6,061 nt of DNA, from the IMG/VR virus record IMGVR_UViG_2734482558_000010; one strand, written 5' to 3'. The notes beneath the pieces are model-generated. The model was given only the letters and a program-made list of their open reading frames with translations, had not been told where the DNA came from and did not search any database. Shown piece by piece: positions 904 through 1,359 of the stretch. Position 1 is the first letter of the stretch, and the number at the start of each line of letters is the position of its first letter. Position numbers and translations under genes: made by a program. The stretch comes from a virus. Its lineage: Duplodnaviria > Heunggongvirae > Uroviricota > Caudoviricetes.

Positions 904-932
904 TTTGCGGGAAAAGGAGAGTTAAGTAGAAT
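904..932 (+). promoter_or_regulatory. Putative sigma70 promoter of the hok mRNA (-35 TTTGCG 904-909, 17-bp spacer, -10 TAGAAT 927-932)
   Basis: Hexamers read from sequence; the predicted start near 939-940 (GGTGCTTGAGG) is the 5' element that has a complement at the mRNA 3' end. Confidence 0.3.
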
Positions 933-994
933 TGCAGCGGGTGCTTGAGGCTATCTGTCTCAGGCATGAACACCAAAAGGCAGATAGAGAAAAG

Positions 995-1060
995 CCCCAG
1001 TTAACATTACGCGTCCGGCAAGACGCTTAACATTAATCTGAGGCTCAATCTATGAACGGC
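995..1060 (-). ncRNA. Predicted Sok-like antisense RNA covering the mok translation-initiation region (boundaries approximate)
   Basis: Minus-strand promoter-like hexamers (-35 TTGCCT at + coordinates 1095-1090, 17-bp spacer, -10 TAACCT at 1072-1067) would start an antisense transcript near 1060 reading across the mok ATG at 1052. Expected from hok/sok family organisation; no clear antisense terminator found. Confidence 0.25.
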
Positions 1061-1264
1061 AAATCTAGGTTAGCCTCTTACGTGCCGAAAGGCAAGGAGA
1101 AGCAGGCTATGAAGCAGCAAAAGGCGATGTTAATCGCCCTGATCGTCATCTGTTTAACCGTCATAGTGACGGCACTGGTAACGAGGAAAGACCTCTGCGA
1201 GGTACGAATTCGAACCGGCCAGACGGAGGTCGCTGTCTTCACAGCTTACGAACCTGAGGAGTAA
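1052..1264 (+). CDS. mok-like reading frame: in-frame 19-codon N-terminal extension of hok (70 aa), as in chromosomal mok/hok pairs
   Basis: Track ORF 1052-1264 shares frame and stop with hok. Recalled from memory: chromosomal mokC/hokC share a stop with a 19-codon extension. A real product is not certain. Confidence 0.35.
   Translation: MNGKSRLASYVPKGKEKQAMKQQKAMLIALIVICLTVIVTALVTRKDLCEVRIRTGQTEVAVFTAYEPEE
1109..1264 (+). CDS. hokD: Hok-family type I toxin, 51 aa (MKQQKAMLIALIVICLTVIVTALVTRKDLCEVRIRTGQTEVAVFTAYEPEE); matches HokD/RelF of the E. coli Qin prophage from memory
   Basis: Internal ATG at 1109 with AAGGAGAAG upstream; classic Hok architecture (N-terminal transmembrane helix, conserved Cys, C-terminal periplasmic tail). 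Confidence 0.85.
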   Translation: MKQQKAMLIALIVICLTVIVTALVTRKDLCEVRIRTGQTEVAVFTAYEPEE

Positions 1265-1332
1265 GAGACCAGGCGGGGGAGAAATCCCTCGCCACCTCTG
1301 ATGGGGCAGGCATCCTCAATGCACCCACACTT

Positions 1333-1359
1333 AACCCGCTTCGGCGGGTTTTTGTTTTT
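1333..1359 (+). terminator. Rho-independent terminator at the hok mRNA 3' end
   Basis: Stem CCCGC (1335-1339), loop TTCG, stem GCGGG (1344-1348), followed by TTTTTGTTTTT. Confidence 0.6.

What the first reader, a model, noticed from the sequence alone, without database searches (positions are those of the whole stretch)
904..1359. Stand-alone hok/mok/sok-type locus with a preserved 5'-3' mRNA pairing, unlike promoterless relBE-linked hokD
The toxin is, as far as I can recall, identical to HokD/RelF, which in E. coli K-12 sits promoterless behind relBE. Here it has its own putative promoter (904-932), an in-frame 19-codon mok-like extension, a terminator, and a 5' element GGTGCTTGAGG (940-950) that is complementary, with one bulged T, to CCTCAATGCACC (1314-1325) near the 3' end. 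That long-range 5'-3' pairing is the hallmark that keeps full-length hok mRNA inert. This looks like a potentially functional type I toxin-antitoxin module inside the prophage, with possible roles in prophage maintenance or abortive infection.
Basis: partly seen in the sequence, partly recalled or inferred. Interest (0 to 1): 0.45.

Follow-up and report, generated by a model that had tools for sequence, protein, structure and literature searches.

The report
Intact prophage hok/mok/sok toxin-antitoxin locus

Summary
Window 939-1359 (+) is a full hok mRNA. Its Hok toxin (1109-1264) is 51/51 identical to K-12 HokD, with a 19-codon in-frame mok leader from 1052. The 5' leader matches Rfam RF01794 at 112 bits. 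A 12-bp 5'-3' helix (939-950 with 1314-1326, one bulged U) has pair probabilities of 0.90 or more. An intrinsic terminator lies at 1333-1350.

On the minus strand a 71-nt Sok RNA is predicted at 1060->990. Its promoter stretch is identical to that of phage 933W sokW, which has been validated experimentally.

K-12 hokD shares homology only from window 1095 onward.

The 5'-3' helix is kept across 42 related loci from Escherichia to Photorhabdus and Pantoea, with compensatory changes.

None of this is new. Full-length copies occur in 3824 of 5426 complete E. coli genomes. [quoted passage not shown]

Verdict: a real and probably functional module, already known, of low interest. The one mildly interesting detail is a hypervariable patch at the Sok recognition loop that comes in discrete alleles.

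The parts
904..932 (+). hok promoter: weak -35 (TTTGCG/TTGCGG, 904-910) and -10 TAGAAT (927-932)
   Evidence: A TAnAAT-like hexamer lies 6 nt upstream of the GGG start in nearly all of 42 related loci. The site is identical in 933W. The generic consensus scan did not call it.
939..950 (+). hok mRNA 5' end (TSS about G939) and tac element GGGUGCUUGAGG
   Evidence: The Rfam RF01794 match starts at 939. The motif is conserved in most of the 62 genome loci. It pairs with fbi at P>=0.90.
951..987 (+). 5' stem-loop (951-960 pairs with 978-987); 957-967 can instead pair with tac as the local (metastable-type) hairpin
   Evidence: Fold of 939-998. The local tac hairpin appears once the 3' end is removed.
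992..1000 (+). ucb / anti-SD box AAGCCCCAG. It pairs with tac in the processed mRNA (992-998); 993-1000 is complementary to the mok SD region 1038-1045 in 7 of 8 positions
   Evidence: Rfam consensus structure, fold, and direct reading of the sequence. Element definitions are from PMC9841398.
990..1060 (-). predicted Sok antisense RNA, 71 nt: 14-nt single-stranded 5' tail, long hairpin (992-1046), U-tail
   Evidence: Maps base for base onto the annotated sokW of 933W. Fold -29.9 kcal/mol, z = -4.9.
1067..1095 (-). sok promoter: -35 TTGCCT (1095-1090), 17-nt spacer, -10 TAACCT (1072-1067)
   Evidence: 1065-1108 is identical to 933W. Mutating the sokW -10 element abolished antitoxin activity (PMC8621323).
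1040..1077 (+). Sok-target hairpin: mok SD GAGG (1040-1043) paired with dcb AGCCUC (1072-1077). The mok AUG lies in the upper stem and the loop is ACGGCAAA
   Evidence: Fold -14.7 kcal/mol. Rfam structure. The Sok 5' end GCCGU is complementary to the loop.
1052..1264 (+). mok reading frame (70 codons, in frame with hok; the first 19 codons are the leader)
   Evidence: ORF list. Same layout as the annotated mokW. Codons 2-5 are hypervariable among relatives.
1109..1264 (+). hok toxin gene (51 aa), preceded by SD AGGAG at 1095-1099
   Evidence: Identical to K-12 HokD. Pfam PF01848, 81.6 bits.
1272..1293 (+). 3' UTR stem-loop, the probable protective 3' hairpin of the processed mRNA
   Evidence: Fold. 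Conserved GGCGGGG...CCCCGCC with a variable loop in alignment A1. The role is inferred from the R1 model.
1314..1326 (+). fbi element CCUCAAUGCACCC (U1320 bulged), partner of tac
1333..1359 (+). intrinsic terminator (stem 1333-1350, T-run to 1359)
   Evidence: Terminator scan. Retained in K-12 hokD.

Best explanation
Window 904-1359 is an intact hok/mok/sok type I toxin-antitoxin module of the HokD/HokW subgroup. It sits in the early-right (nin) region of a lambdoid prophage.

How it most likely works:
1. A weak constitutive promoter (-10 at 927-932) makes a mRNA of about 420 nt starting near G939.
2. In the full-length mRNA the 5' tac element (939-950) is locked to the 3' fbi element (1314-1326). 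The RNA is then stable but closed to ribosomes and to Sok.
3. Slow 3' exonucleolytic trimming removes the terminator and fbi. The 5' end refolds onto ucb (992-998), and the mok SD/dcb target hairpin (1040-1077) becomes available.
4. While the unstable 71-nt Sok RNA (1060->990, minus strand) is being made, its 5' tail docks on the target loop and the duplex is destroyed.
5. If Sok synthesis stops, mok is translated and hok translation is coupled to it. The 51-aa Hok peptide then damages the inner membrane.

What is shown here: the sequence elements, the predicted structures, their conservation and covariation, and identity of the sok promoter and the toxin to experimentally tested versions.

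What is inferred: transcription, 3' processing, toxicity in this host and the biological role. By analogy with Sp5 hokW-sokW, the most likely role is Hok release on prophage induction, helping lysis. Prophage addiction or phage exclusion remain possible.
For: - Toxin: Pfam HOK_GEF E=3e-23 and 51/51 identity to K-12 HokD. HokD was toxic in a published assay (bioRxiv 10.1101/2025.08.07.668861).
- Leader: Rfam RF01794 at 112.4 bits against a gathering score of 59, over 939-1114 and the whole model.
- tac-fbi helix: present in the MFE and centroid, P>=0.90, and lost once the 3' end is trimmed to 1320 or shorter, when the 5' end refolds locally or onto ucb.
- Covariation: across 42 loci, U4-A changes to C4-G in 10 sequences with 2 U-G intermediates. 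GAGG/CCUC changes to GAGA/UCUC in Photorhabdus and to GAAG/CUUC in Citrobacter.
- hok promoter: a -10 hexamer at a fixed distance in nearly all of the 42 loci.
- Sok: it maps onto the annotated sokW and folds as a 5' tail plus terminator hairpin. Its promoter is identical to the sokW promoter whose mutation abolished antitoxin activity.
- Context: all neighbouring genes (rem-like, DUF968, RusA, Q) are on the same strand. The 97.5%-identical locus in strain Ch1 lies between the replication genes and Q.
Against: - There is no expression, processing or toxicity data for this copy.
- Both promoters are weak by consensus, and the generic scan missed them.
- The literature reports that several intact chromosomal hok loci did not mediate post-segregational killing (summarised), so an intact sequence does not guarantee activity.
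- The predicted full-length MFE pairs ucb with a 3' GGGGC (1304-1308) rather than with the mok SD as in the R1 model. The G at 1304 behind this is a window-specific T-to-G difference from relatives. The detail of the closed state is therefore uncertain.
- In Sp5 the locus sits at a different place in the phage genome, so its induction-linked role may not transfer.
Confidence: 0.87

Rival explanations
1. Sequence-intact but physiologically silent relic. Like many chromosomal hok loci, it is transcribed poorly or never releases Hok, and it persists only by hitch-hiking in the prophage.
For: The literature summarised reports that native chromosomal hokA, hokB and hokC loci did not mediate post-segregational killing. 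K-12 hok loci are inactivated (PMC12214031). Both promoters here are weak by consensus.
Against: Every regulatory element is intact and under visible constraint. Variation among close relatives is concentrated in hairpin loops, and the long-range helix covaries. The nearly identical hokW-sokW locus is expressed and active in an Sp5 lysogen. Full-length copies are kept in 3824 of 5426 genomes.
Confidence: 0.1
2. The module is mainly an induction-coupled lysis helper rather than an addiction or defence module. N-antiterminated PR transcription reads through the locus in the hok sense direction on induction. That would collide with the convergent sok promoter and supply sense RNA lacking the tac-fbi lock, so Hok would appear early and speed lysis.
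For: hok is co-oriented with rem, DUF968, RusA and Q. In the 97.5%-identical Ch1 locus it lies downstream of cro and the replication genes. In Sp5, SokW disappears and HokW appears only on RecA-dependent induction, and deleting the locus halves phage release.
Against: The read-through mechanism is my own inference and nothing here tests it. In 933W/Sp5 the locus is at the far end of the genome record on the other strand, so it is not in the PR operon. The cause of SokW loss is stated to be unknown. This is a rival about the role, not about what the locus is.
Confidence: 0.3
3. The 5'-3' complementarity is a chance match, and the locus is just a hok gene with a terminator.
For: 23 of 2000 dinucleotide shuffles of the 3' UTR give a duplex at least as stable, so the energy alone is not overwhelming.
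Against: The same helix sits at the same distance past the stop codon (stop +45 to +56) in 42 loci from several genera, with compensatory double changes. Sliding the 3' partner by 1-3 columns drops pairing from 91% to 32-55%. It corresponds to the tac/fbi stem described for the hok mRNA of plasmid R1.
Confidence: 0.01

Closest known systems
mokW/hokW/sokW of Stx2 phage 933W, equivalent to Sakai prophage Sp5 (annotated in GenBank AF125520; tested in PMC8621323)
   Same: 92.6% nucleotide identity over window 880-1336. It has the same tac, ucb, dcb, fbi, hok promoter and sok promoter sequences. The layout is the same: a 70-codon in-frame mok, a 51-aa Hok and a 71-nt Sok. It is also carried by a prophage.
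   Different: The toxin C-terminus differs (FTAYEPEE here, FVDYESEK in HokW). The Sok 5' tail and target loop are a different allele (AACGGCAAAT against CTGAACACAT). The position also differs: here the locus is between the early genes and Q on the early-right strand, whereas in 933W it lies near the end of the record on the opposite strand. The 933W copy does not share this locus's terminator sequence.
hokD (relF) of E. coli K-12, in the Qin cryptic prophage downstream of relBE
   Same: Identical 51-aa toxin. 94.5% identity from the hok SD (window 1095) through fbi, the terminator and into rem. The downstream neighbours are the same: rem, the DUF968 gene ydfU, and the Q-like ydfT.
   Different: K-12 lacks everything upstream of 1095: the hok promoter, tac, ucb, the mok start, the Sok target and the sok gene. 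relE ends 71 nt before hokD. The literature describes it as inactivated by a genomic rearrangement (PMC12214031). The K-12 copy looks like a truncated derivative of a locus like this one.
hok/sok (parB) of plasmid R1, the archetype
   Same: It has the same set of regulatory elements and the same folding logic: tac/fbi lock, tac/ucb and SD-mok/dcb after 3' processing, a metastable 5' hairpin, and Sok antisense to the mok translation start. Both match the same Rfam family.
   Different: HokW, which differs from this toxin at only 4 C-terminal residues, is reported as 44% identical to R1 Hok. In R1 mok is in a different frame from hok (from my own knowledge of the R1 sequence, not tested here), whereas here mok is an in-frame extension. 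R1 is a plasmid and this is a prophage. Plasmid-stabilising killing is proven for R1 and not for this copy.
hokC (gef) and other chromosomal hok loci of Escherichia
   Same: They have the same tac motif and the same position of fbi. Several such loci were recovered in the genome scan (L023-L029, L033) with a G-U variant of the helix.
   Different: The toxin match is about 80% identical over the aligned residues. The Sok hairpin region is shorter (alignment A1). They sit at core-chromosome sites rather than in prophages (inferred, not checked here).

Membership tests
[quoted passage not shown] | Small hydrophobic Hok/Gef-family toxin of about 50 aa | tested here: met
   PF01848 at 81.6 bits against a cutoff of 22. 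51/51 identical to K-12 HokD. The NCBIfam Hok models hit below their cutoffs (48.5 against 73), which reflects the subfamily models rather than a lack of homology.
[quoted passage not shown] | Overlapping leader reading frame (mok) with its own SD, upstream of and overlapping hok | tested here: met
   ATG 1052 with GAGG at 1040-1043. The frame has 70 codons and ends at the hok stop. Same layout as the annotated mokW.
[quoted passage not shown] | Cis-encoded antisense RNA (Sok) with its promoter inside mok, complementary to the mok translation-initiation region, made of a single-stranded 5' tail plus hairpin | tested here: met
   -35 TTGCCT, 17-nt spacer and -10 TAACCT on the minus strand at 1095-1067, identical to the validated sokW promoter. 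The predicted 71-nt RNA has a 14-nt tail, a hairpin and U4. This is met at the sequence level only; transcription cannot be tested here.
[quoted passage not shown] | Long-range 5'-3' pairing (tac/fbi) in the full-length mRNA | tested here: met
   A 12-bp helix with P>=0.90, conserved with compensatory changes in relatives.
[quoted passage not shown] | Alternative 5' fold after loss of fbi: tac/ucb stem and mok-SD/dcb target hairpin | tested here: met
   The whole Rfam RF01794 model, which encodes this fold, matches at 112 bits. The isolated 5' domain and the target hairpin fold as expected. In whole-transcript ensembles the local tac hairpin outcompetes tac/ucb (P 0.36-0.79 against 0.10-0.17), so which alternative dominates is not resolved.
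[quoted passage not shown] | Slow 3' exonucleolytic processing that activates the mRNA, and RNase III decay of the Sok duplex | not testable with these tools
   This needs Northern blots or 3' RACE after rifampicin. A conserved 3' UTR hairpin (1272-1293) that could stop trimming is present.
[quoted passage not shown] | Toxicity of Hok and neutralisation by Sok | not testable with these tools
   From the literature only. The identical HokD peptide was toxic in a plasmid assay. HokW was toxic and neutralised by sokW.
K-12-type relBE-hokD arrangement | hok immediately downstream of relE, without its own leader, mok or sok | tested here: not met
   The window has 156 nt of canonical hok leader upstream of the breakpoint at 1095 and no relBE.

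The most novel reading that the evidence does not exclude
Among otherwise near-identical prophage HokD-type loci, the roughly 20-nt patch that forms the Sok 5' tail and the target-hairpin loop (window about 1044-1066) exists as discrete alleles. There are 22 variants in 138 loci, seven of them common. The window's allele occurs in 16 loci, and the same toxin is attached to several alleles. The most novel reading is that these alleles are orthogonal specificity types. Each co-resident lambdoid prophage could then keep a private hok/sok switch that another prophage's Sok cannot neutralise. In nin-region copies like this one, that switch might be tripped by PR read-through at induction.
Probability: 0.2. 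Interest if true: 0.35.

Novelty: already known. Interest (0 to 1): 0.1.

Why it matters
It matters little beyond correct annotation. The window carries a complete type I toxin-antitoxin module, whereas automated annotation of such loci lists only 'hokD' and leaves out mok, Sok and the RNA elements. It is also a clear illustration that K-12's relBE-linked hokD is a truncated derivative of a prophage hok/sok locus. If the allelic Sok recognition loop does prove to confer orthogonality between co-resident prophages, it would add a small piece to how multiple lambdoid prophages coexist. That question is about the family, not about this window.

Tried and rejected
- Generic promoter scan. It found neither the hok nor the sok promoter, because both have weak hexamers. 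I relied instead on positional conservation and identity to the validated sokW promoter.
- Pair counting on the MAFFT alignment. It undercounts the distal half of the helix, because sequences without the bulge are one column out of register. That half was read from per-sequence duplex predictions instead, which are fitted to each sequence.
- isrK (RF01394) and rsmX matches on the hok 3' UTR, 1268-1354. They score 25.8 and 24.8 bits against gathering scores of 50 and 56. The alignment shows only a hairpin-plus-terminator resemblance, so I rejected them.
- NCBIfam. Only sub-threshold Hok-family and HokA hits, with no HokD-specific model, so it was uninformative.
- Do co-resident hok loci avoid sharing a Sok-loop allele?. 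Copies differ in 5 of 6 genomes. The random-pair expectation was not obtained because that part of the script failed. With seven or so alleles at comparable frequency, most random pairs would differ anyway, and six genomes are too few to conclude anything.
- ucb pairing with a 3' GGGGC (1304-1308) in the MFE. It depends on a window-specific G at 1304 where relatives have T, so I did not treat it as a family feature.
- Antisense ORFs 1078-1242 and 1239-1367 and the leader ORF 932-1030. I treated them as chance ORFs because they have no family support.

Full report
**What the window is.** The 6061-base window is the early-right/nin-to-Q segment of a lambdoid prophage. All recognisable genes are on the + strand: a rem-like ORF (1482-1766), a DUF968 protein (1842-2900), RusA (2901-3281) and antiterminator Q (3278-4132). 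These are followed by tRNA-Met, tRNA-Arg and tRNA-Arg. The best whole-window matches are E. coli prophage regions at about 95% identity.

**Checking the observation.**
- The 51-codon ORF at 1109-1264 is 51/51 identical to K-12 HokD and matches Pfam HOK_GEF at 3e-23.
- An ATG at 1052, preceded by GAGG at 1040-1043, opens a frame that runs in phase into hok. This gives the 19-codon mok-type extension.
- The 421-nt RNA 939-1359 folds with z = -7.1. Both the MFE and the centroid pair GGGUGCUUGAGG (939-950) with CCUCAAUGCACCC (1314-1326), 12 bp with U1320 bulged.
- In the Boltzmann ensemble each of the 12 pairs has probability 0.90-1.00.
- An intrinsic terminator lies at 1333-1350.

As a bare match the duplex is only moderately unlikely. 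It scores -21.5 kcal/mol against -15.4 +/- 2.2 for shuffled 3' UTRs, and 23 of 2000 shuffles do as well. It is still the best non-self partner for the 5' end anywhere in the window.

**Independent identification.** Rfam RF01794 ('sok') matches 939-1114 on the + strand over its whole length at 112.4 bits, against a gathering score of 59. The model ends at the hok AUG and matches the sense strand. It therefore describes the hok mRNA leader in its processed fold (tac/ucb stem, 5' stem-loop, complement of the Sok hairpin, SD-mok/dcb hairpin), not the antisense RNA itself.

**The antisense gene.** Aligning the window with phage 933W places the annotated 71-nt sokW at window 1060->990 on the minus strand. 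Upstream lie TTGCCT (1095-1090), a 17-nt spacer and TAACCT (1072-1067). Window 1065-1108 is identical to 933W. The mutagenic primers in Takada et al. alter this stretch, and changing the -10 element abolished antitoxin activity (PMC8621323). The predicted RNA has a 14-nt single-stranded 5' tail, a long hairpin and a U-tail (-29.9 kcal/mol, z = -4.9). Its first bases, GCCGU, are complementary to the loop (ACGGCAAA) of the target hairpin 1040-1077, in which the mok SD pairs with dcb.

**The hok promoter and start site.** The -10 TAGAAT (927-932) sits 6 nt before G939. Nearly all of the 42 related loci have a TAnAAT-like hexamer at exactly that distance from the conserved GGG, even where the sequence further upstream is unrelated. 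The -35 is weak, and the generic scan missed both the hok and the sok promoters.

**Comparison with K-12.** In MG1655, hokD lies 71 nt downstream of relE inside the Qin prophage and is followed by rem, ydfU (DUF968) and ydfT (Q-like). Homology with the window begins at 1095, the hok SD, and runs at 94.5% through hok, fbi, the terminator and into rem. K-12 has therefore lost the promoter, tac, ucb, the mok start, the Sok target and sok. This agrees with the published statement that K-12's other chromosomal hok loci are inactivated by insertion elements or by genomic rearrangements that remove canonical components (PMC12214031).

**Conservation and covariation.**
- A genome scan with the Mok/Hok protein returned 62 loci from Escherichia, Shigella, Kluyvera, Citrobacter, Pseudocitrobacter, Pantoea, Erwinia and Photorhabdus.
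- The tac motif is almost invariant.
- In 42 distinct full loci its best partner in the 3' UTR lies 45-56 nt past the stop codon.
- On the alignment, position 4 is U-A in 29 sequences, C-G in 10 and U-G in 2. Overall pairing is 91%, and it falls to 32-55% when the 3' partner is slid by 1-3 columns.
- The distal half shows GAGG/CCUC changing to GAGA/UCUC (Photorhabdus) and to GAAG/CUUC (Citrobacter), with G-U intermediates in hokC-type loci.
- This half is out of register in the MAFFT alignment for sequences without the bulge, so the formal count understates it.
- These results re-derive the published tac/fbi picture (PMC9841398).

**Refolding.** If the 3' end is trimmed to 1320 or shorter, the tac-fbi pairs disappear. 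The 5' end then pairs locally (the metastable-type hairpin with 957-967) or with ucb. Which alternative dominates cannot be settled by thermodynamic prediction. In the full-length MFE, ucb pairs with GGGGC at 1304-1308 rather than with the mok SD as in the R1 model. That pairing depends on a window-specific G at 1304 where relatives have T, so I do not treat it as a family feature.

**How it most likely works.** It follows the canonical hok/sok mechanism, which rests on established knowledge of R1 as summarised.
1. The full-length mRNA is stable and locked.
2. Slow 3' trimming removes fbi, and the mRNA refolds.
3. Sok then docks through its 5' tail and the duplex is degraded.
4. If Sok has decayed, mok is translated, hok translation follows by coupling, and Hok damages the inner membrane.

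The sequence and structural prerequisites are shown here. Expression, processing and toxicity are inferred.

**Likely role.** The only direct evidence for a prophage copy comes from Sp5. There SokW disappears and HokW appears on RecA-dependent induction, and deleting the locus delays growth arrest and halves phage release. Here the locus is co-oriented with the early-right operon. N-antiterminated read-through could therefore both interfere with the convergent sok promoter and supply unlocked sense RNA. That is my inference and it is untested. It cannot be the whole story, because the 933W copy lies elsewhere in the genome on the other strand.

**Novelty.** There is none for the locus itself.
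- A match covering at least 80% of 880-1400 must include the leader that K-12 lacks. Such a match is present in 3824 of 5426 complete E. coli genomes, with a median of two matching places per genome and up to nine.
- 78 phage records carry it.
- 933W has been annotated with mokW, hokW and sokW since 1999, and the system was characterised in 2021.
- A recent survey reports hok enrichment in prophages.
- The best match to this exact 521-nt stretch is 97.5%, so it is simply another allele.

**The one detail worth noting.** Among the 13 closest loci, variation is concentrated in hairpin loops. Within the leader and coding region it is highest at 1047-1064, which is the Sok 5' tail, the target loop and mok codons 2-5. 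A pattern scan anchored on the conserved flanks recovered 138 loci with 22 variants of this patch, seven of them common. The window's variant occurs 16 times, and the identical HokD toxin is combined with several variants. This looks like a set of Sok specificity alleles. Co-resident copies differ in 5 of 6 genomes, but with this many alleles most random pairs would differ anyway, and the sample is too small to conclude anything.

**Verdict.** The feature is already known, and interest is low.

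Noticed in passing
window 1-99 and 5963-6061: The two ends of the window are an exact 99-nt inverted repeat, 100% complementary. The sequence folds back on itself at the ends, which looks like an assembly artefact rather than biology.
   Followed up: partly
window 5133-5401; 4380-4500 and 5411-5531: A 269-base run of N interrupts the tRNA region. It is flanked by a 121-nt direct repeat (91% identical), each copy containing a tRNA-Arg(TCT). This is a masked or unresolved stretch between duplicated tRNA genes.
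   Followed up: no
window 5595-5784: A strong match to the sRNA family STnc100 (RF02076, 123.6 bits against a gathering score of 47) lies downstream of Q and the tRNAs. A weak second match is at 5823-6011.
   Followed up: no
window 1247-1250 (hok codon 47, TAC followed by G): The Tyr47 codon carries the UACG motif that TadA edits to a Cys codon in hok mRNAs. K-12 hokD is reported to be 6% edited (PMC12214031). In the 42-locus alignment, 38 loci have TACG and 4 have a genomically encoded TGC (Cys) at this codon. That fits selection for a cysteine at this position.
   Followed up: partly
window about 1044-1066, and loci L066-L185: The Sok 5' tail / target-loop patch is hypervariable and falls into discrete alleles: 22 variants in 138 loci, seven of them common. 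Flanks and toxin stay nearly identical. In one allele, which is 2 nt shorter, my reading of the sequence is that mok would fall out of frame with hok and stop at a UGA overlapping the hok AUG. I did not run this as a check.
   Followed up: partly
window 1373-1402: A sigma-70-like site (TTGAAG, 18 nt, TAGAAT) lies just downstream of the hok terminator and upstream of the rem-like ORF. The hexamers are also present in K-12. It may be a promoter for rem.
   Followed up: no
window 814-897: A 27-codon hydrophobic ORF ([27 protein letters not shown]) overlaps the stop of the preceding ORF by ATGA. Its first 17 bases match a primer designed on Sp5 just upstream of hokW. It has no family hit.
   Followed up: no
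L006, L012, L039, L058, L065 (genome contigs) and H33 (phages): Near-identical E. coli-type hokD loci appear in records labelled Veillonella parvula MAG, Xanthomonas pisi, Acinetobacter idrijaensis, Haemophilus MAG, Collinsella MAG and an 'Actinobacillus phage'. Most are on short contigs. This probably reflects contamination or mis-binning in public assemblies.
   Followed up: no
L030 (1398, 2027, 2645), L044, L032, L049 (840, 1358): Photorhabdus and Pseudocitrobacter carry hok loci in tandem arrays, with tac motifs about 520-710 bp apart. One copy (L030, at 2027) has an internal deletion in hok.
   Followed up: no
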